From: Pinibacter soli
Lineage (GTDB): Bacteria; Bacteroidota; Bacteroidia; Chitinophagales; Chitinophagaceae
NCBI RefSeq assembly: GCF_029961145.1
Contig: NZ_JASBRG010000007.1
Location: 598,155 to 662,154, forward strand
Direction: 5' to 3'
DNA: 64,000 nucleotides
The position numbers were made by a program, and so were the translations under genes. The notes beneath the pieces are model-generated. The model was not told the origin of the DNA, ran no database searches, and saw only the letters and a program-made list of their open reading frames with translations. Positions 4,551-62,984 of the stretch are shown here, in pieces. Position 1 is the stretch's first letter. Every line of letters begins with the position of its first letter.

Positions 4551-4600
4551 ATGCTGTAAGAACTATTTGAACGCGCAAAGCTAAGGCATAAAAGGCATAA

Positions 4601-4781
4601 TTTGAAAATGTGAAAATATGAAAATGTGAAAATGCTGAAAGTCCGATATTCATTATCCATGCTTGTACCCACACTATCATTTAATAATGACACCAAAGAA
4701 TAACCGCCATCTGAAGAAAATGACCAGCCTTCAGAATTTTCACATTTCTCACATTTTCATATTTCCACATTAACAGCAGGT
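4601..4781. repeat. Inverted arrays of the TGAAAAT(G/A) octamer flanking about 100 bp, in the nusB-groES divergent intergenic
   Basis: 4601-4637 reads tttgaaaatgtgaaaatatgaaaatgtgaaaatgctgaa. 4740-4781 reads tcagaattttcacatttctcacattttcatatttccacat. The two are reverse complements of each other with a few mismatches. Confidence 0.6.
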
Positions 4782-5232: not shown

Positions 5233-5255
5233 ACGATGCCCAAAAAATTGAAAAT

Positions 5256-5395
5256 GTGCTAATATGTAAATTTGAAAATGCTTTCTGTGTATCATTCCGG
5301 ATTCGTTCAAAGCTTCTCGAATTTCCAAAGCAATTTCAAATCATCTCGCACCTCAATTTTCAAATCTTCAAATTAAAAATTTTCAAATTACAAAT
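5256..5395. repeat. TGAAAAT/TTTCAAA repeat tract between groES and groEL
   Basis: Contains gaaaatgtgctaatatgtaaatttgaaaatgc, and further on ttttcaaatcttcaaattaaaaattttcaaattacaaat just before the groEL ATG. It carries the ATTAGCA-ATTTTCAA motif shared with the repeats that flank the RAYT. Confidence 0.5.
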
Positions 5396-7090: not shown

Positions 7091-7312
7091 TGGTCGACGG
7101 CACATCCGAATATTATTAGTACATTTTATTCTTCTTAAGGGTAAAACACTTATCTTCATCAAGTTAAAAGTTATCGCTTGCACGTGACTGTGACCATCAC
7201 CTACCGCCCAATTGAAATTTGTAAACACGAAAATTCTCCCATGACGATGTCGCGTGTTTAAAAATTCACCACGACACTACATTAAATTAACAACCTAAAT
7301 TTAACTTTAACC

Positions 7313-8107
7313 ATGGAATGCCTAAACTGCAACAATCAATTACCAGACAAAGGATTTTTTTGCCCGACCTGCTCGAATCAATTTAAGTGCAAAAGTTGCG
7401 ATGGATTACTGCTAAAAGATGCAAAAGTTTGTATCTTTTGTGGAGAACAAGTAAATGGAAATAAATCCACCATTTCGAACACCAACACTATAGAATTTTC
7501 AGAAACAGAAAACTCCAGAACGTTCAAAGCAAACTTCACAGATACAGTCGGTCAAAGTATAAGCGACTCCTTTGGAATGTTTATAATGAATAAAATTACT
7601 AGTAAAAAGCCAGCGACTTTAGGGCAACCCAAAAGCTACCCCAATAATAGACTGGATTTAAGTGAACAGGAAGAAGCAGAGATTATTGAAGAACCTTCTG
7701 ACACATTAGAATTAAGACAACTGAAAAGTATTTTTAAATCTGATGGTGACAAAACAACATTATCAGAAACTCGATTAAAAGCTACATCAAAAAGAGATTA
7801 TGGAATAAGACTCTCCATAATATTCCTTTATTATAAACTCGTATTAGGCACTGAAAACGTACCAAGAAAAGAACTCACAGCTATTTTAGACAATGCAAGT
7901 GTGGAAGATGGCAACTTACGATATTGGCTCACAAACAACCCATTAATTGGAGTGTCTGGAGACTTAGTCGAGTTAAAAGCCCCCGGGAAAGATGCTGCAA
8001 AAAAATATTTGTCAGAAATAGCTAATAAAGAACTAAAGGACAAATGGCAGATTGGCACCTATTCAAAGGTATCAAGAAAACCAAAGGAGAAAAAAGATAA
8101 AAAATGA
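7313..8107 (+). CDS. Double zinc-ribbon domain protein, function unknown; first gene of a two-gene cassette
   Basis: N-terminus carries CxxC pairs (CLNC...CPTC...CKSC...CIFC). Then comes an S/T/E-rich linker and an uncharacterised C-terminal domain of about 100 aa. The stop overlaps the downstream start by 4 bp (ATGA at 8104-8107). Local base composition is clearly more AT-rich than the flanking groEL and RAYT regions. Confidence 0.6.
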   Translation: MECLNCNNQLPDKGFFCPTCSNQFKCKSCDGLLLKDAKVCIFCGEQVNGNKSTISNTNTIEFSETENSRTFKANFTDTVGQSISDSFGMFIMNKITSKKPATLGQPKSYPNNRLDLSEQEEAEIIEEPSDTLELRQLKSIFKSDGDKTTLSETRLKATSKRDYGIRLSIIFLYYKLVLGTENVPRKELTAILDNASVEDGNLRYWLTNNPLIGVSGDLVELKAPGKDAAKKYLSEIANKELKDKWQIGTYSKVSRKPKEKKDKK

Positions 8108-8898
8108 GTGATTTCTTTAATGAATTCTGTGATATCGCCAAAATATCCGGAAAACCTAAGTTTGAGGTTGTTTTAGCATTTGTTTGGTTTAACCAATATA
8201 AAACTAAACAGCATGATATCTCAATGAAGCAAATTAATCAATACTTTGTGGATGCGCATTTATCTGCCTATAATCCGACGTATTTAAAGCGAGACCTCAA
8301 CAAAAGTTCTAAAATCACAAAAGGTACGCAGAGAGACACCTACAAACTTAATAGGAAAACACTTGATGAGTTAAATAAAATCTATTTGCCGCAAATCGAG
8401 ACCGAGGTCTCATTAACGGAGCGGGCAAACATTAAAGTCACCCCGTTTTTAAAATCAGCAGATATAGACGATGCCAAAAAAATGGCCGAATTGTATATAA
8501 TTCTACATTGTTTAGAAAATTCCGTGAGAAATTTTATAGATGATGTGCTAACAAAAAAACTAGGTCCAAATTGGTGGGACACGGCTAAAAATGCTGAATT
8601 AGAAAAAAAGTTTAAAGAAAGAAAAGAAAAAGAAGCAAAAAGCAAATGGCTGAGTCCGAGAGGAAAAGCGTCAGCTCTTTTTTACATAGACTGGGGAGAT
8701 CTGGTAAAAATTATTAGAAAGTTTGAAAATGACTTTAAGCCATATATCGATGAAATGAAATTTGTCGAACTTCGACTTGAAGAATTGGAAAAGGTAAGAA
8801 ATATCATTGCTCACAACGGAGTACTACCTTCCAGTGATGACTTTGATAGGTTAATCTTGCATTTTAAAGATTGGTGCAAACAAGTTAATGAGACCTAA
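8104..8898 (+). CDS. HEPN-domain protein (Swt1-like HEPN, R-x4-H motif); putative RNase or abortive-infection effector
   Basis: The C-terminal ...ELEKVRNIIAHNGVLPSSDDFDRL contains the RN-x3-H HEPN catalytic motif. Upstream helices (MAELYIILHCLENSVRNFIDDVLTKKLGPNWWD) resemble the Swt1/Abi-type HEPN fold. Translationally coupled to 7313-8107. Confidence 0.6.
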   Translation: MSDFFNEFCDIAKISGKPKFEVVLAFVWFNQYKTKQHDISMKQINQYFVDAHLSAYNPTYLKRDLNKSSKITKGTQRDTYKLNRKTLDELNKIYLPQIETEVSLTERANIKVTPFLKSADIDDAKKMAELYIILHCLENSVRNFIDDVLTKKLGPNWWDTAKNAELEKKFKERKEKEAKSKWLSPRGKASALFYIDWGDLVKIIRKFENDFKPYIDEMKFVELRLEELEKVRNIIAHNGVLPSSDDFDRLILHFKDWCKQVNET

Positions 8899-8955
8899 GC
8901 TTCAATGTATCAAGTTGTGAAGCAAATAAGATAAAATCATAATCAAATTAACTGC

Positions 8956-9225
8956 ATGAATAATATTCTAACTCAAGACGTACAGCAAATAGTAAAAAAC
9001 AGCAACGCTCGTTTTTTTCTTATCATTTGGTCTTCATCACAAGGAGCCTTTTTTATTTACGAAAATGGAAGCATTCAGAATATTGAGTGCGGCCACATGG
9101 CATCGCCGGCAATTCATCGAGAACAAGCAATTCTTGTTTATAAAAAAGCTGTAGCTAAAGCAGAAGATCACGCAGACATTAAAGACGGACAAATCGATAT
9201 CTTGCCTATCCCAAGCTTTAAATAA
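8956..9225 (+). CDS. Small hypothetical protein (89 aa), third co-directional gene of the low-GC islet
   Basis: ORF of 89 aa, 57 bp downstream of the HEPN gene, in the same AT-rich composition. No recognisable motif. Confidence 0.4.
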   Translation: MNNILTQDVQQIVKNSNARFFLIIWSSSQGAFFIYENGSIQNIECGHMASPAIHREQAILVYKKAVAKAEDHADIKDGQIDILPIPSFK

Positions 9226-9283
9226 TTGTCTTCATCAAGGTTATACAAGCATGAACTTTTGGAACTGGATCATGCTTGTATTT

Positions 9284-9472
9284 TTACATCAGCTGACCTC
9301 CCTCCATCAACTTCTCCAACCTCGCAATCATTTCCTCTTTCTCTTTAAGCATCCTTTCATAAAGAGCAATTTTCTCTTCATGCAGTTCAACTATTTTTTC
9401 AATGGGATGAAATGTAGGATTGTAATTGATGCCGTTTAAAATAGCACCATGATCAAAAGTATTGGAGATCAT
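9284..9472 (-). CDS. Small hypothetical coiled-coil protein (62 aa)
   Basis: ORF with heptad-like charged helix (KIVELHEEKIALYERMLKEKEEMIARLEKL). Convergent with the islet genes. Could be spurious. Confidence 0.3.
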   Translation of the reverse strand: MISNTFDHGAILNGINYNPTFHPIEKIVELHEEKIALYERMLKEKEEMIARLEKLMEGGQLM

Positions 9473-9516
9473 ATTTACCGCTTGCTCGTCATCCAGATTT
9501 TGTTACGCGAAATGAA

Positions 9517-9548
9517 CTTTCAAATTAGCATATTTTCAAATTTTCAAG
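9517..9548. repeat. Left copy of a roughly 28-bp direct repeat flanking the RAYT/REP module
   Basis: ctttcaaattagcatattttcaaattttcaag. Compare 10567-10596, attttcaaattagcgtattttcaatttcag. Confidence 0.6.
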
Positions 9549-9900
9549 TTTGGCTCGCAGGTGTGGCAGTCGGTAAGTTAGCGGGGCGGGTTTGTGTGCG
9601 AGGGGCGGGCGTTGGCACAGACACGCAGCGCTGCAAGGCTAAGCTGCATGTCTGCGCCAACGTGGCGACAGCGAGATCGTTCGCGGGCATTTTTGCAGGT
9701 GCAAGTTTCAAAAAAATGTCGCACGATACACACGACACGCTGCTGCACCTACACAATGTTGGCGCGGACATGCAGCCCAGCTTCCGTAGCCTGGCGTGTC
9801 TGTGCCGTGCACTTTCATCGTGGCAGCACTTTTCGCATGCATATCATAACCTATACCTATATTCGCAATTAACAATCTGCATTAGTAACCTGTGGCCAAC
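9549..9900. repeat. GC-rich cluster of imperfect palindromes (candidate REP/BIME-like cluster) directly upstream of the RAYT
   Basis: About 19-bp units in alternating orientation: gttggcacagacacgcagc (about 9612), gctgcatgtctgcgccaac (about 9640), gttggcgcggacatgcagc (about 9758), cgtgtctgtgccgtgcac (about 9800). This is a strongly GC-rich block in an AT-rich neighbourhood. Long ORFs are open in all frames here, which is typical of GC-rich non-coding DNA. Confidence 0.5.
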
Positions 9901-9930
9901 TTAAAAATCTACAATTAAGTTCAAAGCCAC

Positions 9931-10470
9931 ATGAGTAAAAAGTACAAATTCTTAGACAACGAAAAGCCTTACTTCGTCACATTTACTGTCGTTAATTGGA
10001 TCGATCTGTTTACAAGAAATATTTACAAAGACATCTTCCTGGATACCGTTAGATATTGCCAGCAAAACAAGGATCTCGACGTATTTGCGTGGGTCATTAT
10101 GACCAATCACGTGCACATGATAGTAGGCAGCAGAGGCAATCCATTAAGTAACATTATGCGAGATTTGAAACGGCACACATCAGAGAAATTGCATATCGCC
10201 CTTGAAGCTAACAAGAGGGAAAGCAGAAGAGAATGGATGCTGTGGCTGATGATGCGTGCAGGCAGTAAAATGGGTTTAAAATTTCAGCTTTGGCAGCCGG
10301 AAAGCCATCCAATGGAATTGAGCTCTCCTTTTATTGCAAATCAAAAGCTGCATTACCTGCATCAAAATCCTGTCAAAGCCGGCTTTGTTTCAAAAGAAGA
10401 AGAATGGACGTATAGTAGTGCAGGAGATTATCATGGCCGCAAGGGATTGCTGGAGGTAATACTAATTTGA
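9931..10470 (+). CDS. REP-associated tyrosine transposase (RAYT; IS200/IS605-like HuH TnpA family)
   Basis: HuH motif VIMTNHVHMIVG. C-terminal LWQPESHPMEL...HYLHQNPVKAGFVSKEEEWTYSS parallels E. coli YafM/RayT (IWQPRFWEH...YIYINPVKHGWV..W.FSS). Single gene, about 180 aa. Confidence 0.8.
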   Translation: MSKKYKFLDNEKPYFVTFTVVNWIDLFTRNIYKDIFLDTVRYCQQNKDLDVFAWVIMTNHVHMIVGSRGNPLSNIMRDLKRHTSEKLHIALEANKRESRREWMLWLMMRAGSKMGLKFQLWQPESHPMELSSPFIANQKLHYLHQNPVKAGFVSKEEEWTYSSAGDYHGRKGLLEVILI

Positions 10471-10566
10471 AAATTTTCAAATGCTTTGAGCGCAGGTTTC
10501 GTTATTGATTCTAAAATTGATCGAATGACAAGATAAATTTTATTGCGTAGAGCGATACACAGAATG

Positions 10567-10596
10567 CATTTTCAAATTAGCGTATTTTCAATTTCA
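10567..10596. repeat. Right copy of the direct repeat flanking the RAYT module
   Basis: attttcaaattagcgtattttcaatttcag. Confidence 0.6.
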
Positions 10597-10599
10597 GAT

Positions 10600-11082
10600 T
10601 TACGTCCTCGGCTTTGCAGAGATAAAAAATTCAACCCGCAATGCCGGATAGATATGCGAAGATTTATCCACGTTCTTGTAGTAAACGCCGGCATCTATAG
10701 TCATTCCATTTTTCTTTCTAAATACCAGGTCCTTGCCCACAGTTAGGTTAGCAGTGAATTGTTCGCCCGACACCTCATCCGGAAGATATGTACCACCCTG
10801 CCGGCAAAACCATGTTTTTTGTGCGAGTTTGGGATTCTTATTTCCAAAATATAACCTGTGCTCAAGGCTAATAGTCGGATATATTTCATCATAGGCAGGG
10901 GTCACCCCGGCATTTACCCCAAGTTGGCTCCAGCTGGCAAACCTGTAAGTTACACCCGCATGGATCAATTCAGGCAACGATAACCCGAGTACAAATCGTG
11001 TTTTGGATTCTTTTATTTCCTGCGCATAAGCGTGCTGTATAAAGGGGTATACCACCAAAACGAGTACAAATAGCGGCTTCAT
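10600..11082 (-). CDS. Hypothetical secreted protein, possibly a small beta-barrel or OMP-like fold
   Basis: Signal peptide MKPLFVLVLVVYPFIQHAYAQ, then alternating hydrophobic beta-strand-like segments. No recognised motif. Confidence 0.5.
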   Translation of the reverse strand: MKPLFVLVLVVYPFIQHAYAQEIKESKTRFVLGLSLPELIHAGVTYRFASWSQLGVNAGVTPAYDEIYPTISLEHRLYFGNKNPKLAQKTWFCRQGGTYLPDEVSGEQFTANLTVGKDLVFRKKNGMTIDAGVYYKNVDKSSHIYPALRVEFFISAKPRT

Positions 11083-19803: not shown

Positions 19804-19823
19804 GATTGTTTCCTTTTTTTTAA

Positions 19824-19924
19824 ATAACTGAATAATTGAATAATTGAATGTTCATATTCGAAAAGTCTCTTCGACTTTCAACCACTCAGTTTATTCAGTC
19901 ATTCAGTTATTCAATTATTAATTC
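19824..19924. repeat. AACTGAAT/AATTGAAT-armed inverted-repeat element; overlaps the stop of 19918-20856
   Basis: Left arm aactgaataattgaataattgaatg, right arm cattcagttattcaattattaatt, around the core hairpin aaagtctcttcgacttt. Family members also at 33605-33688 and 51541-51560. Confidence 0.6.
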
Positions 19925-37333: not shown

Positions 37334-37918
37334 ATGGAACGCATTACTCAGGTAAAAGAGATCATTCAATCATCAATTGATACAAAACAGCAAATTCTAC
37401 AGGATCAGGCAATGCTTGAAAGAATGCTGGAAGTTGTTGATGCCATCGTAAACGCATTTCAAAACGGTAAACGCATTTATTTTTGTGGAAATGGTGGTAG
37501 TGCTGCAGACGCACAACACCTCGCTGCCGAGTTCAGCGGACGTTTTTATAAAAACAGGCGAGCATTACCTGCTGAAGCACTGCATTGCAATACCTCATAC
37601 TTGACAGCCGTAGCAAATGATTACAGCTATAACGATATTTATTCTCGCCTCGTTGACGGCATCATGGTGAAAGGCGATGTATTGATCGGTCTTTCTACAT
37701 CAGGCAATTCAGCCAACATAGTAAGTGCATTTGAAGTTGCGAGAGAGAAAGGCGTCATCACCGTTGGCTTCACTGGCATTACCGGCGGCATCATGCATTC
37801 ATTAAGTGATTATTTATTCAATGTACCATCTTCCATAACACCACGCATCCAGGAAAGCCATATTACCATAGGGCATATTATTTGTGAGCTGGTGGAAGAG
37901 AAATATTTCTCAATTTGA
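37334..37918 (+). CDS. gmhA: D-sedoheptulose-7-phosphate isomerase (SIS domain)
   Basis: FCGNGGSAADAQHLAAEF...GLSTSGNSANIV are GmhA SIS motifs. Confidence 0.85.
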   Translation: MERITQVKEIIQSSIDTKQQILQDQAMLERMLEVVDAIVNAFQNGKRIYFCGNGGSAADAQHLAAEFSGRFYKNRRALPAEALHCNTSYLTAVANDYSYNDIYSRLVDGIMVKGDVLIGLSTSGNSANIVSAFEVAREKGVITVGFTGITGGIMHSLSDYLFNVPSSITPRIQESHITIGHIICELVEEKYFSI

Positions 37919-38085
37919 AAATTTGAAAATTTGAAAATTCGTTTGGTGTATCATTCATGATTTATTGTTGGCAACCCAAGAGGCTGATAATTATTGATAA
38001 CAAATGTTCGGCCTAAAGCATTTTCAAATTCTCAAATCTTCAAATTTTCAAATTGCATCTCTCATTTTCATATTTTCAAATCATG
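37913..38085. repeat. TGAAAAT/TTTCAAA repeat tract between gmhA and gmhB
   Basis: tttgaaaatttgaaaatttgaaaattcg ... gcattttcaaattctcaaatcttcaaattttcaaattgcatctctcattttcatattttcaaatc. Confidence 0.55.
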
Positions 38086-41320: not shown

Positions 41321-41575
41321 ATTTCACGCAAAGGCGCAAAGGGTATTTTTTCGTGCGGAGAAACTGAGTTGTTTCACACAGCGAACGCAGCGAATAAGCG
41401 ACGCAAAGAGTTCGCGAACGTCGGAATGTTATTTTAGGTTTTAAACAGATTGATGTGCACCTGATAAGAAAATTGCAGACCTAAACCAACAAGCTCCTGC
41501 CGCGCCGCCGCTTCATTGCGGTGACCGCGAGAAGTCTTTGCGTCCTTTGACTTTCCTTTGCGCCTTTGCGGGAAA
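41321..41575. repeat. GCAAAGG-armed inverted-repeat element, second copy of the family
   Basis: atttcacgcaaaggcgcaaagggtat ... gtctttgcgtcctttgactttcctttgcgcctttgcggg. Confidence 0.6.
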
Positions 41576-50147: not shown

Positions 50148-50279
50148 GAAATTAATAATTAACAATTAATAGGTGTAGCATCTGGATAAGAACACTGCTT
50201 AACTATGTTCGACATACAATAGGGCAACATTCTGTCGTGAATGTTGCCCTATTAATTTTTAATTATTAATTATTAATTT
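50148..50279. repeat. AATTAAT-armed element with a conserved-structure hairpin-terminator core
   Basis: Left arm gaaattaataattaacaattaatagg. Then ggtgtagca plus about 45 nt. Then a perfect hairpin agggcaacattc-tgtcgt-gaatgttgccct. Then the right arm attaatttttaattattaattattaatt. Paralogous copies at 62853-62984, 52254-52390 and 51585-51677. Confidence 0.7.
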
Positions 50280-51584: not shown

Positions 51585-51677
51585 AATTAATAATTAATAA
51601 TTAAAAATTAACAGGGCATTGTCGATTATAATTTTGAGGGCAACACTATTAATTCTTAATTATTAATTATTAATTGA
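51585..51677. repeat. AATTAAT-armed element, degenerate copy
   Basis: aaaaattaataattaataattaaaaattaacagggcattgtcg...gagggcaacactattaattcttaattattaattattaattg. Confidence 0.55.
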
Positions 51678-52253: not shown

Positions 52254-52390
52254 AAAATTAATAATTAAGAATTAAGAATTAATAGTGTGCATTCGAAATC
52301 ATAGTCGCCGTTCATGACTAGTCAAAAAAATAGGGAATCATCGAATAAACGACTGATGCCCTATTAATTTTTAATTATTAATTATTAATT
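52254..52390. repeat. AATTAAT-armed element with a bidirectional terminator hairpin
   Basis: aaaattaataattaagaattaagaattaatagtg...aaaaaaatagggaatcatcgaataaacgactgatgccctattaatttttaattattaattattaatt. Ends 4 bp before the stop of the MFS gene. Confidence 0.65.
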
Positions 52391-52393
52391 ACC

Positions 52394-53929: not shown

Positions 53930-55117
53930 AAGATGATTATTACAGACTCAACAATTTCTATACAAAAGATTATAGAAGCAGAAAAAGAAAAAGCTCTTCG
54001 AAGCATTGGCGAGAAAATTATCCATAAGGAAAGAATAACCGGGGAAGAAGGCGTTTTACTTTTTGAAAAAGGGAGCCTGCCTTTTGTGGGCGCTTTGGCG
54101 AATCATGTTCGCGAAAGACTGCATGGCAATAAAACATATTTCAACCGCAATTTCCATATTGAACCAACAAACGTTTGCGTGTTCTCCTGCAAGTTCTGCT
54201 CCTACTCACGCTTGTATGCACATCGTGAAGAGGGTTGGGAACTGAGTACAGACGACATGCTGAACATCGTTAAAAAATACGATGGCAAACCGGTTACGGA
54301 AGTACACATCGTTGGTGGCGTTCACCCGAAATTGAATCTTAATTTCTTCGCAGACCTTTTGCAAAAAATAAAGGCTCATCGCCCGGACCTGCACGTAAAG
54401 GGCTTTACAGCTGTGGAGCTTGATTACATGTTCCGCAAGGCGAAAATGACGATCGACGAAGGAATGAAATTTCTTCATGAAGCAGGTTTGCAATCATTGC
54501 CGGGTGGTGGCGCAGAGATATTTGCCCCTGAGATACGCACACAGATCTGCGAGGACAAAGTTGACGCAGCGGGCTGGCTGGCTATTCATGAAGCAGCACA
54601 CAAACTGGGCATGCATTCGAATGCGACCATGTTATATGGTCACATTGAAAAATTCCATCACCGCATTGATCACATGGAAAGATTGCGCAGCCTGCAGGAC
54701 AAAACGGGTGGTTTCAACACCTTTATTCCGCTGAAGTTCCGCAATAAACAAAATGACATGAGCGATGTGCCGGAAAGCTCGGTAACGGAAGATATGAGGC
54801 TTTATGCGATTGCAAGATTATACATGGACAACTTCCCTCACCTGAAAGCATACTGGCCAATGCTGGGCCGCAAAAACGCCCAGTTAAGCCTAGCCTTCGG
54901 CGTAAACGATATCGATGGCACCATCGACGATTCTACAAAGATATATTCAATGGCAGGCAGCGAAGAGCAAACGCCTGTAATGAGCACCGCTGAAATGGTG
55001 GCGTTGATCAAACAGGTAAAACGTCAGCCTGTTGAGCGTGATACTTTATACAATGAAATCAGAGATTATTCTGACATTGATATCAAAGAGATTGAAGTAA
55101 ATCCGCTGTTGAATTAA
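53930..55117 (+). CDS. Radical SAM menaquinone-biosynthesis enzyme of the futalosine pathway (MqnE/MqnC family)
   Basis: CxxxCxxC cluster motif NVCVFSCKFCSYSR within the FO-synthase/MqnC/MqnE-like fold (VHIVGGVHP...). The ORF is open from 53852. Subtype not resolved. Confidence 0.7.
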   Translation, partial: KMIITDSTISIQKIIEAEKEKALRSIGEKIIHKERITGEEGVLLFEKGSLPFVGALANHVRERLHGNKTYFNRNFHIEPTNVCVFSCKFCSYSRLYAHREEGWELSTDDMLNIVKKYDGKPVTEVHIVGGVHPKLNLNFFADLLQKIKAHRPDLHVKGFTAVELDYMFRKAKMTIDEGMKFLHEAGLQSLPGGGAEIFAPEIRTQICEDKVDAAGWLAIHEAAHKLGMHSNATMLYGHIEKFHHRIDHMERLRSLQDKTGGFNTFIPLKFRNKQNDMSDVPESSVTEDMRLYAIARLYMDNFPHLKAYWPMLGRKNAQLSLAFGVNDIDGTIDDSTKIYSMAGSEEQTPVMSTAEMVALIKQVKRQPVERDTLYNEIRDYSDIDIKEIEVNPLLN

Positions 55118-55135
55118 AAGTAAAAAATAAAAAGT

Positions 55136-55171
55136 AAAAAGGGAGCCCGGCTTACATCGGGCTCCCTTTTT
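55136..55171 (+). terminator. Rho-independent terminator for the mqn gene
   Basis: aaaaagggagcccg-gcttacatc-gggctcccttttt. Confidence 0.75.
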
Positions 55172-55228
55172 ACTTTGAGGCTTTAAGAAAGTTTTGAGTA
55201 GTAAAACCCTCATAACGTTTATCAAATA

Positions 55229-55262
55229 AAAAAGCGTTCGATACATTTCGAACGCCTTTTTA
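55229..55262 (-). terminator. Rho-independent terminator for the 55285-57615 gene
   Basis: Minus strand: aggcgttcgaaatgtatcgaacgctttttt. Stem gcgttcga/tcgaacgc. Confidence 0.7.
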
Positions 55263-55284
55263 TTTTTTATTTTTTACTTATTCG

Positions 55285-62852: not shown

Positions 62853-62984
62853 CAATTAATAATTAAAAATTAATAGGTGTAGCACAGTGATGAGAGAATA
62901 GCATATCATCTGCTCTACAAACAACAGGGCCGCATTCACTCAAGAATGTGGCCCTGTTAATTATCAATTATTAATTATTAATTT
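62853..62984. repeat. AATTAAT-armed element with a hairpin core showing compensatory changes relative to 50148-50279
   Basis: gcaattaataattaaaaattaataggtgtagca ... agggccgcattc-actcaa-gaatgtggccct gttaattatcaattattaattattaatt. Compare agggcaacattc...gaatgttgccct in the 50.2 kb copy. Confidence 0.7.

What the first reader, a model, noticed from the sequence alone, without database searches (positions are those of the whole stretch)
9517..10596. RAYT gene with an upstream GC-rich REP-like palindrome cluster, bounded by a 28-bp direct repeat
The 179-aa protein has the HuH motif (NHVHMIVG) and the LWQPE...HYLHQNPVKAGFV...W C-terminus, which parallels E. coli RayT/YafM. Directly upstream is a roughly 350-bp GC-rich block (9549-9900) made of about 19-bp units in alternating orientation: gttggcacagacacgcagc, gctgcatgtctgcgccaac, gttggcgcggacatgcagc. 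This is the organisation expected of REP/BIME clusters, which RAYTs recognise. The module is flanked by near-identical direct repeats: ctttcaaattagcatattttcaaatttt and attttcaaattagcgtattttcaattt. This could be a target duplication, or the module may have inserted into a copy of the genome's abundant TTTCAAA repeat. The GC-rich palindromes occur only once in this window, so they are not simply the common intergenic repeats.
Basis: partly seen in the sequence, partly recalled or inferred. Interest (0 to 1): 0.6.

Follow-up and report, generated by a model that had tools for sequence, protein, structure and literature searches.

The report
RAYT transposase gene with its REP hairpins
This is a domesticated single-copy tyrosine transposase gene (a RAYT) sitting next to two copies of the GC-rich DNA hairpin it probably recognises, an already described kind of system in Bacteroidota, so it is real but ordinary.

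Summary
ORF 9931-10470(+) encodes a 179-aa HUH/Tyr protein. It passes NCBI's REP-associated tyrosine transposase model (99 bits, cutoff 80) and fails the IS200 model. Its best solved relative, by sequence and by fold, is E. coli TnpAREP (4ER8).

The GC-rich block holds two inverted copies of one imperfect hairpin, at 9611-9661 and 9758-9806. The same hairpin lies within about 1 kb of the gene in 16 related loci (RAYT 56% identical or more). In metagenome contigs it also occurs far from any RAYT: 80 of 104 clusters, and 26 of the 30 best-flanked ones lie outside long ORFs. It is therefore a dispersed REP/REPIN family.

The gene is single-copy in the window, under purifying selection, and at the same chromosomal site in four Pinibacter-clade genomes. 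That fits a RAYT, not an insertion sequence. Protein motifs and hairpin architecture (CT[AG]G foot, G.T wobble at the stem base, no GTAG) match TnpAREP subclass 2.6 / RAYT group 5, already described for Bacteroidetes.

The flanking direct repeat is not a target duplication. It is two copies of an AT-rich element common in this genome, and Pinibacter aurantiacus has it too.

I could not test dispersal in the window's own genome beyond 64 kb, where I found none. Verdict: a new member of a known kind.

The parts
9931..10470 (+). RAYT / TnpAREP gene, 179 aa. HuH motif at H60-V-H62. Catalytic Tyr candidate Y142 lies in YLHQNP.
   Evidence: NCBIfam NF047646 REP_Tyr_transpos scores 99.4 bits (cutoff 80), while the IS200 model scores 24 bits (cutoff 55). 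Pfam Y1_Tnp matches. phmmer against 4ER8 aligns HVH with HMH and Y142 with Y115. The best Foldseek match is 4er8_A. Differences from four orthologues fall mostly at third codon positions, e.g. 15/5/51.
9611..9661 (.). REP hairpin 1, arms A...B'. GTTGGCACAGACACGCAGC, a 13-nt loop, then GCTGCATGTCTGCGCCAAC. The stem carries two A.C mismatches on the + strand and two G.T wobbles on the - strand.
   Evidence: (I2). Folded as DNA it gives -19.8 kcal/mol on the + strand and -23.3 kcal/mol (z -5.8) on the - strand.
9758..9806 (.). REP hairpin 2, arms B...A', the inverted copy of hairpin 1. GTTGGCGCGGACATGCAGC, loop, GCGTGTCTGTGCC. It occupies the conserved gene-proximal position and orientation.
   Evidence: (I1, I6). 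On its own it is weak: -11.2 kcal/mol, z -1.25.
9600..9815 (.). REPIN-like doublet. The two hairpins together form one long imperfect palindrome, with A pairing to A' and B' to B.
   Evidence: DNA fold -61.3 kcal/mol, z -4.7. RNA fold of 9540-9930 has z -6.6. The doublet is conserved in four relatives with compensatory C-G to T-A changes.
9555..9610 (.). G-rich segment (GGTGTGGCAGTCGGTAAGTTAGCGGGGCGGGTTTGTGTGCGAGGGGCGGGC), probably a degenerate REP remnant. It marks the left limit of the block conserved among relatives.
   Evidence: Homology with L003, L004 and L087 begins here. The segment resembles the foot plus loop of L002 and L106 units. The remnant reading is an inference.
9840..9930 (+). 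Highly conserved 90-nt leader directly upstream of the ATG. It includes a hairpin at 9891-9931 (GTGGCC AACTTAA ... TTAAGTT ... GCCACA) that ends inside the start codon. Presumed promoter and 5' UTR.
   Evidence: Nearly invariant in five relatives and better conserved than the REP block. The hairpin folds at -6.6 kcal/mol, z -3.3. The function is inferred.
9504..9554 (+). Left copy of the 'direct repeat'. It is the truncated right half of an AT-rich 8-mer-array element (TTTCAAAT x4).
   Evidence: (D3). It is homologous to L004 10622-10675, and the full element is present at L004 9419-9575.
10459..10600 (+). Complete AT-rich paired-array element: TTTGAAAA-type array, spacer of about 90 nt, then TTTTCAAA-type array. 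It contains the right copy of the direct repeat (10556-10594) and supplies the RAYT stop codon.
   Evidence: I7, D3. It matches L004 9436-9573 at 78% and 5269-5293 at 96%. The protein ends 5-7 aa earlier than the family consensus.
9449..9904 (+). 151-aa ORF across the GC-rich block. A spurious ORF, not part of the system.
   Evidence: No Pfam family. Relatives give only 33-44% aa matches, split over different frames and found on both strands alike.

Best explanation
The locus is a REPtron: a domesticated, vertically inherited HUH single-strand-DNA endonuclease/ligase (RAYT, TnpAREP subclass 2.6 / Bertels group 5) together with copies of its cognate REP hairpin.

**The REP unit.** It is about 45-55 nt: a CT[AG]G-type foot (TTGG here), a 12-16-bp GC-rich stem and a loop of 13-22 nt. 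Its two arms always differ at two positions. They are GCGCAGAYATGC and GCACAGAYACGC. One DNA strand therefore folds with two G.T wobbles, and the other folds with two A.C mismatches.

**Arrangement.** In the window two units lie in inverted orientation upstream of the gene and form a REPIN-like long palindrome. In most relatives one unit flanks each side of the gene with the feet pointing outward. Gene-less doublets of the same polarity, and also singletons, are scattered in extragenic DNA.

**Proposed mechanism.** This part is inferred by analogy with E. coli TnpAREP and is not shown here. When the DNA is single-stranded, for example at the replication fork, the RAYT binds the folded hairpin and reads the foot and the asymmetric stem. 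It cleaves through Y142 with the HuH-bound metal and rejoins the ends. In this way it excises and re-inserts REP/REPIN units while itself staying single-copy.

**Shown:** protein family, catalytic motifs, purifying selection, synteny, gene-hairpin association, and dispersal of the hairpin in related genomes.

**Inferred:** catalysis, which strand is used, and current activity in this genome.
For: **Protein**
- NF047646 scores 99 bits, above its cutoff of 80. The IS200 model is below its cutoff.
- The best PDB sequence hit and the best fold hit are both 4ER8, TnpAREP bound to a REP.
- HuH, WQ and Y..NP are invariant in 23 homologues.
- Differences from orthologues are mostly at third codon positions.

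**Single copy and vertical inheritance**
- There is one copy in the window.
- The flanks are the same in P. aurantiacus (L004), L087 and L103.
- P0015 sits at one place in 7 contigs.

**Association with the hairpin**
- The half-site GC[AG]CAGA[CT]A[CT]GC lies within about 1 kb of the gene in 16 loci whose RAYT is 56% identical or more. Flanks beyond about 2 kb lack it, and so do loci whose RAYT is less than 56% identical.
- L006 shows the minimal form, CTGG-hairpin-RAYT-hairpin-CCAG.

**Dispersal**
- Of 104 clusters, 80 have no RAYT nearby. Thirty of those have at least 1.5 kb of sequence on both sides, and 26 of the 30 lie outside ORFs of 150 aa or more.
- Single long contigs carry one RAYT plus RAYT-free copies, for example L125/L135/L138.
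- There are no hits in viral contigs.

**Hairpin constraint**
- 37 of 42 hairpins in loci fetched by protein are heterotypic A/B, and none is homotypic.
- Compensatory C-G to T-A changes occur among close relatives.

**Match to the literature**
- Subclass 2.6 is described as 179 aa with NH[LIV]H, WQ and YIH[QN]NP, found in Bacteroidetes, flanked by atypical structures without GT[AG]G and with copies elsewhere in the genome (PMC6006769).
- Its listed Aequorivita REP, GCTGG-CGCGGGCG-TCC-CGCCCGTG, has the same foot and G.T wobble. So do the hairpins flanking RAYTs 50-60% identical to this one.
Against: - No second copy of the unit occurs in the window's 64 kb or in the 20 kb around the P. aurantiacus orthologue. 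Dispersal in this genome is unproven, and the family may be very low-copy or extinct here.
- Hairpin 2 alone folds no better than shuffled sequence.
- The window has no REP downstream of the gene. Its doublet has the opposite polarity (A-B' then B-A') to the dispersed doublets, which are all B-A' then A-B'.
- The foot is TTGG rather than the family's CT[AG]G, and there is no GTAG.
- RAYT-free metagenome copies cannot be assigned with certainty to the same genomes as the RAYTs.
- No biochemical activity has been shown for any subclass 2.6 protein, as far as the papers read here report.
Confidence: 0.85

Rival explanations
1. Relic REPtron. The RAYT is retained, but its REP family has died out in the Pinibacter lineage. 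The two upstream hairpins would then be the only copies left and would no longer be mobilised.
For: There are no other units in the 64-kb window or in the 20 kb of L004. Hairpin 2 is weak. The downstream REP has been replaced by an AT-rich element that also clips the C-terminus.
Against: The gene is under purifying selection and the hairpins keep compensatory changes. The number of A' units differs among L004, L087 and L103. L103 has an extra REP 1 kb downstream that the window lacks. L106, from the same sample as the 92%-identical RAYT of L087, carries a RAYT-free unit of the same GACA subtype.
Confidence: 0.2
2. Autonomous IS200/IS605-type insertion sequence. The hairpins would be its left and right ends, and the direct repeat would mark the insertion.
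For: The Pfam hit is to Y1_Tnp, 'Transposase IS200 like'. Many homologues sit on contigs of about 1 kb, as repeats often do. In L006 the gene is tightly bracketed by the two hairpins.
Against: The IS200 model scores 24 bits against a cutoff of 55. The Tyr motif is Y..NP, not the Y...Q of class 1. The flanking hairpins are inverted with respect to each other, not on the same strand. The gene is at one site shared by four genomes and in one place in 7 contigs for P0015. Most hairpin copies lack the gene. The direct repeat is an unrelated AT-rich element.
Confidence: 0.04
3. The GC-rich block is a structured RNA, either a leader or regulatory element or an sRNA, specific to this gene rather than a DNA repeat.
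For: The + strand folds better than the - strand as RNA, -162 versus -146 kcal/mol. A conserved leader hairpin reaches the ATG.
Against: No Rfam family matches. The same hairpin occurs upstream or downstream of the gene, in both orientations, and mostly without the gene. Unit number varies between close relatives. A secondary effect on transcription or mRNA stability is not excluded, since REPs are known to have such effects (PMC6006769).
Confidence: 0.05
4. The block is protein-coding: ORF 9449-9904, called as a gene in the Logan assembly.
For: It is an open frame of 151 aa and was called as a gene in L001.
Against: It has no family. Relatives match at only 33-44% aa, in shifting frames and equally on the opposite strand. 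Indels between relatives are not multiples of three.
Confidence: 0.01

Closest known systems
TnpAREP subclass 2.6 REPtrons of Bacteroidetes (Quentin et al. 2018, PMC6006769), equivalent to RAYT group 5 of Bertels et al. 2017 (PMC5581495)
   Same: The length is 179 aa. The motifs are NHVH, WQ and Y-L-H-Q-N-P, with about 80 aa between HuH and Tyr and a predicted extra helix (100-114) between the core elements. The host phylum matches. The gene is flanked by non-GTAG hairpins with copies elsewhere, is low-copy and is vertically inherited. The hairpin foot and basal G.T wobble match the Aequorivita entry in their Table S1.
   Different: This clade's REP has a longer stem (12-16 bp) and a large loop (13-22 nt), where the listed unit has 8 bp and a 3-nt loop. 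Its exact sequence is not in their table. In the window both units lie upstream as one long palindrome, and the foot is TTGG.
E. coli TnpAREP (YafM/RayT) with its REP/BIME system, PDB 4ER8
   Same: It is the best sequence and fold match. It shares the HUH plus Tyr(Y..NP) chemistry and the single-copy gene next to inverted REP pairs. Its REP subtypes combine as heterodimers (Y/Z2), which parallels the A/B arms here.
   Different: Identity is only about 15%. The E. coli REPs carry a 5' GTAG foot and number in the hundreds, whereas here the foot is CT[AG]G/TTGG and the density appears low. E. coli TnpAREP belongs to subclass 2.2.
REPINs of Pseudomonas fluorescens (Bertels and Rainey 2011, PMC3116915)
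   Same: Two REPs in inverted orientation form a hairpin and are dispersed as doublets and singletons in extragenic space. They are thought to derive from the ends of a RAYT-containing ancestor. Here [B-A']-RAYT-[A-B'] and the gene-less [B-A'][A-B'] share polarity.
   Different: The RAYT group differs (3 versus 5), as do the sequence and foot. Abundance is far lower, and replication has not been observed.
IS200/IS605 family TnpA (IS608, ISDra2)
   Same: It shares the HUH/Y1 fold and recognises subterminal DNA hairpins in single-stranded DNA (ranks 2-20).
   Different: Its Tyr motif is Y...Q and its end hairpins lie on the same strand. It is multi-copy and horizontally mobile. The curated IS200 model is not met here.

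Membership tests
RAYT / TnpAREP (class 2 TnpAY1) | HUH motif plus a catalytic Tyr in a Y---NP motif, and a score above the curated family model cutoff | tested here: met
   NHVH at residues 59-62 and Y142-LHQ-NP. NF047646 scores 99.4 bits against a cutoff of 80. These residues are invariant in 23 homologues. Y142 aligns with Y115 of 4ER8.
RAYT / TnpAREP (class 2 TnpAY1) | Y1 HUH fold like 4ER8 | tested here: inconclusive
   The AlphaFold model has low confidence, pLDDT 54.8. Even so, 4er8_A is the top Foldseek hit, E 1.2e-5, TM 0.56/0.61.
RAYT / TnpAREP (class 2 TnpAY1) | Single or low copy number, with vertical inheritance | tested here: met
   There is one copy in the 64-kb window. The site is orthologous in the window, L004, L087 and L103. 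The copy number in the whole source genome could not be tested.
RAYT / TnpAREP (class 2 TnpAY1) | Gene flanked by cognate palindromic REP units | tested here: met
   Two units lie upstream in the window. Units lie within about 1 kb of the gene in 16 related loci.
RAYT / TnpAREP (class 2 TnpAY1) | The same REP dispersed in extragenic DNA of the host genome | tested here: inconclusive
   This is met in related genomes and metagenome contigs: 80 of 104 clusters are RAYT-free, and 26 of the 30 well-flanked ones are extragenic. It was not seen in the window's own 64 kb, and the whole genome was not available.
Canonical GTAG-tagged REP (subclasses 2.2, 2.4, 2.5, 2.7, 2.8) | 5' GT[AG]G tetranucleotide at the foot of the hairpin | tested here: not met
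   The foot is C(81%)-A(95%)-G(88%) on the A-B' strand, which reads CT[AG]G on the other strand. In the window it is TTGG.
TnpAREP subclass 2.6 (Quentin 2018) / RAYT group 5 | About 179 aa, with NH[LIV]H, WQ and YIH[QN]NP, a HuH-Tyr distance of about 82 aa, Bacteroidetes hosts, and atypical non-GTAG flanking hairpins | tested here: met
   Searches compared with the table read. One deviation: L replaces I in the Tyr motif. The hairpin foot and wobble are shared with their Table S1 entry. I did not run a phylogenetic placement with their sequences.
IS200/IS605 insertion sequence | TnpA passing the IS200 model, with a Y...Q Tyr motif | tested here: not met
   NF033573 scores 24.4 bits against a cutoff of 55. 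The motif is Y..NP.
IS200/IS605 insertion sequence | Left and right end hairpins on the same strand, with multiple identical copies per genome | tested here: not met
   The flanking hairpins are reverse complements of each other. The gene has a single syntenic copy.
REPIN | Two REPs in inverted orientation that fold into one long hairpin and are present as dispersed doublets | tested here: met
   The window doublet folds with z -4.7. Dispersed B-A'/A-B' doublets occur in relatives. The window's own doublet has the opposite polarity and a 96-nt spacer.

The most novel reading that the evidence does not exclude
The strictly heterotypic arms of this REP give two G.T wobbles on one strand and two A.C mismatches on the other. 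They are conserved from the 8-bp Aequorivita-type units to the 16-bp units here. They could act as a built-in strand selector, so that the subclass 2.6 RAYT would recognise and cut only one of the two possible single-stranded hairpins. On that reading the CT[AG]G foot replaces GTAG as the guide or cleavage tag. This would turn the 'atypical secondary structures' reported for Bacteroidetes RAYTs into a defined third tagged REP super-family beside GTAG and CGTC.
Probability: 0.3. Interest if true: 0.45.

Novelty: new member of a known kind. Interest (0 to 1): 0.3.

Why it matters
The practical gain is correct annotation. The gene should be labelled a RAYT (TnpAREP subclass 2.6), not an IS200 transposase. 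The 151-aa ORF over the GC-rich block should be dropped.

The analysis also gives a concrete consensus for a Chitinophagaceae REP family:
- foot CT[AG]G;
- arms GCGCAGAYATGC and GCACAGAYACGC;
- loop 13-22 nt.

It shows that the supposedly 'atypical' hairpins of Bacteroidetes RAYTs share a regular architecture. That gives a ready substrate design for the first biochemical test of a subclass 2.6 enzyme. It does not change how RAYT/REP systems are understood.

Tried and rejected
- **Rfam.** The whole window at gathering thresholds and 9200-10700 at E up to 5 gave nothing credible.
- **Target-site duplication.** Rejected. The repeat is 39 nt and imperfect. It belongs to an AT-rich array element with other copies in the window, and P. 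aurantiacus has full copies of about 140-155 nt on both sides.
- **Recent insertion or an empty site.** Four related genomes all carry the module at the same place, so I found no empty site. I first read L003 as a different insertion site. Its upstream flank is in fact shared with L004, and only the downstream side differs.
- **Filled versus empty comparison.** The extra REP in L103 could not be used for this, because the adjoining sequence has no counterpart in the window.
- **Coding potential of ORF 9449-9904.** Rejected.
- **Structure prediction.** The alignment of 23 sequences gave only pLDDT 55, so I treat the fold match as supporting evidence only.
- **Viral contigs.** A scan for the hairpin gave zero hits.
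- **Published REP table.** A search of the Quentin 2018 supplement for this exact REP sequence found nothing.
- **Sigma-70 promoter and terminator scan.** No more sites than in shuffled sequence, and it is not informative for Bacteroidota.
Full report
**1. Observation**

The sequence is as described.
- ORF 9931-10470(+) encodes 179 aa with NHVHMIVG, LWQPE and HYLHQNPVKAGFV.
- The 300 bases from 9500 to 9800 are 54-59% GC in a 31-41% background.
- The 19-nt unit GTTGGCRCRGACAYGCAGC occurs three times, against 0.06 expected, all between 9611 and 9776 and in alternating orientation. It occurs nowhere else in the 64 kb.
The block is therefore two hairpins, 9611-9661 and 9758-9806, that are reverse complements of each other.
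- Together they fold into one long palindrome: DNA fold of 9600-9815 -61 kcal/mol, z -4.7; RNA fold of 9540-9930 z -6.6.
- The flanking direct repeat is real. It is 39 nt at 82% identity, 9504-9542 versus 10556-10594, and its 23-mer core occurs twice against 0.01 expected.

**2. The protein**

- Pfam gives only Y1_Tnp at 30 bits.
- NCBI's curated REP-associated tyrosine transposase model is passed (99.4 bits, cutoff 80). The IS200 model is failed (24 bits, cutoff 55).
- The only solved relative by sequence is E. coli TnpAREP (4ER8). The HuH histidines align, and Y142 aligns with the catalytic Y115.
- An AlphaFold model is of low confidence, pLDDT 55. It still finds 4er8_A first, ahead of the IS200/IS605 transposases.
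- In 23 homologues the HuH, WQ and Y..NP residues are invariant.
- Against four orthologues most differences fall at third codon positions, for example 15/5/51, so the gene is under purifying selection.
- The 151-aa ORF over the GC-rich block has no family. Relatives match it only weakly, in shifting frames and on both strands. I treat it as spurious.

**3. Inheritance**

- The window is syntenic with Pinibacter aurantiacus MAH-26 (L004; Chitinophagaceae). The groES/groEL side is 92% identical and the methyltransferase side 81-85% identical. The RAYT module lies at the same place, with 93% protein identity.
- Two metagenome contigs, L087 and L103, share the site as well.
- The exact protein of a 63%-identical homologue, P0015, sits at one place in seven contigs.
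- This is a stable, single-copy, vertically inherited gene. That is the behaviour described for RAYTs and not for insertion sequences (PMC5581495).

**4. The hairpin travels with the gene**

- The half-site GC[AG]CAGA[CT]A[CT]GC comes in two types, A (GCACAGAYACGC) and B (GCGCAGAYATGC).
- Among loci fetched by protein similarity alone, it lies within about 1 kb of the gene in 16 loci whose RAYT is 56% identical or more. A few further copies lie 1.5-1.9 kb away.
- Flanks beyond about 2 kb lack it, and so do loci whose RAYT is less than 56% identical.
- The commonest layout is one hairpin on each side with the conserved foot outward. L006 shows this at its most compact: CTGG-[B...A']-10 nt-ATG...TAA-4 nt-[A...B']-CCAG.
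- More distant family members (50-60% identity) are flanked by related hairpins of the form CT[AG]G-CGCAAG...CTTGTGC. Protein and hairpin therefore co-vary, as expected of a RAYT and its cognate REP.

**5. The hairpin is dispersed without the gene**

By my own estimate fewer than one chance match would be expected for 24 specified bases.
- Of 104 hairpin clusters in the 80 loci that were fetched, 24 are next to a RAYT and 80 are not.
- Thirty of the RAYT-free clusters have at least 1.5 kb of sequence on both sides, often 4-11 kb. Twenty-six of these lie outside any ORF of 150 aa or more.
- Single long contigs carry one RAYT plus separate RAYT-free copies, for example L138 with L125 and L135 on a 127-kb contig.
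- Gene-less doublets are always B-A' followed by A-B'. That is the polarity of the pair that brackets the gene, which fits the REPIN idea that doublets derive from the ends of a RAYT unit.
- No viral contig carries the motif.
- L106 comes from the same sample as the 92%-identical RAYT of L087. It has a RAYT-free unit of the window's own GACA subtype between two genes.
- L103 has an extra unit 1 kb downstream that the window lacks.
- The number of A' arms differs among the close relatives.
- The window itself, and the 20 kb around the P. aurantiacus gene, contain no further copy. In this lineage the family is either low-density or nearly extinct, and I could not scan the whole genome.

**6. Hairpin architecture**

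- In 128 distinct units the stem is flanked by G on one side and by C-A-G (81/95/88%) on the other. The loop is 17-22 nt outside the 12-nt cores. Read on the other strand the foot is CT[AG]G. The window has TTGG.
- In loci chosen without reference to the motif, 37 of 42 hairpins pair an A arm with a B arm, and none is A/A or B/B. One strand therefore folds with two G.T wobbles and the complementary strand with two A.C mismatches.
- The wobble strand is the more stable for both window hairpins: -23.3 versus -19.8 kcal/mol, and -11.2 versus -8.7 kcal/mol.
- Between close relatives the stem position Y/R changes together, C-G to T-A.

**7. The direct repeat**

- It is not a target duplication. Both copies belong to an AT-rich element: an array of TTTGAAAA-type octamers, a spacer of about 90 nt, then the inverted array.
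- This element has relatives in other intergenic regions of the window.
- In P. aurantiacus complete copies of about 140-155 nt flank the module on both sides. In the window the left copy is cut down to its last 50 nt or so.
- The right copy overlaps the end of the gene and supplies its stop codon. This leaves the protein 5-7 residues shorter than the family consensus.

**8. Mechanism**

Shown: a conserved HUH/Tyr protein of the TnpAREP type, a cognate hairpin that co-varies with it, and dispersal of that hairpin in related genomes.

Inferred from E. coli TnpAREP, which cleaves and rejoins REPs (PMC6006769): the protein binds the hairpin in single-stranded DNA, reads the foot and the asymmetric stem, and cleaves and rejoins through Y142. 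It thereby moves REP/REPIN units while remaining single-copy. Which strand is used and where it is cut are unknown.

**9. Comparison with the known**

- Quentin et al. 2018 define TnpAREP subclass 2.6, which equals Bertels group 5. It averages 179 aa and has the motifs NH[LIV]H, WQ and YIH[QN]NP, with a HuH-Tyr spacing of about 82 aa. It also carries an extra helix-forming insertion.
- They find it mostly in Bacteroidetes. [quoted passage not shown]
- Every one of these features is met here.
- Their Table S1 lists an Aequorivita unit, GCTGG-CGCGGGCG-TCC-CGCCCGTG, with the same foot and the same G.T wobble at the stem base.
- The present REP is a long-stem, long-loop variant that their table does not list.
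- Membership of the canonical GTAG REP super-family is not met. Membership of IS200/IS605 is not met on model score, Tyr motif, hairpin orientation or copy number.

**10. Verdict**

This is a new member of a known kind. The modest additions are a defined REP consensus for a Chitinophagaceae clade and the observation that subclass 2.6 hairpins share a regular foot-plus-wobble design. Interest 0.3.

Noticed in passing
window 4599-4771, 5245-5395, 19823-19923, 37912-38054, 41327-41570, 50150-50278, 51585-51675, 52256-52391, 55112-55276, 62854-62983, 10459-10600: At least eleven intergenic regions hold a short tandem array of a 7-8-nt AT-rich unit. After 35-210 nt the reverse-complement array follows. 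The unit sequence differs from site to site (AATTTGAA, AATGTGAA, AATAATTG, AATTAAT, AATAAAA, CGCAAAGG). L003 has an (AAGAATTA)n array at the corresponding place. I did not establish what these paired arrays are.
   Followed up: partly
window 7093-9500 versus L004 6349-9524: The segment between groEL and the RAYT module is not homologous between the two genomes. The window has a double-zinc-ribbon protein (7313-8107) and a Swt1-like HEPN protein (8104-8898). P. aurantiacus instead has two TIR-domain proteins (TIR_2, ThsB_TIR), a SLATT effector and an HTH protein. It looks like a variable defence-gene slot next to the repeat-rich REPtron.
   Followed up: partly
window 10455-10470: The RAYT stop codon lies inside the AT-rich array element (ctaatTTGAaaat). 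The Pinibacter-clade proteins end at ...LLEVILI, 5-7 residues before the family's usual ...LEPLII end.
   Followed up: partly
window 9840-9930: The 90 nt before the ATG are nearly invariant in five relatives, better conserved than the coding sequence. They contain a hairpin (9891-9931) that ends inside the start codon. This could be a promoter with a translation-occluding leader.
   Followed up: partly
L004 9380-9420 and L003 25-60: A second copy of the module's left end (GGTGCGGTAGYCGGTAAGTTAGCG) lies upstream of the AT-rich element in both P. aurantiacus and L003. This suggests an old tandem duplication with internal deletion around the REPtron.
   Followed up: no
L002 3566-3930 and 5060-5460: Downstream of a 63%-identical RAYT, a unit of about 180 bp holding one B-A' and one A-B' hairpin is tandemly duplicated. 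Three further hairpins lie 1.5-1.9 kb away.
   Followed up: no
L115 2246-2777 and L159 2027-2558: Two metagenome RAYT homologues match as two pieces. In L115 the pieces overlap by about 20 nt, and in L159 they are separated by a gap of about 13 nt. These could be frameshifted pseudogenes or small insertions within the gene.
   Followed up: no
one search hit table: Many close homologues are known only from contigs of 0.6-2 kb. The source-assembly contig L001 begins about 620 bp upstream of the RAYT start, roughly 300 bp before REP hairpin 1. That would be expected if the long palindromes and AT-rich arrays break short-read assemblies.
   Followed up: no
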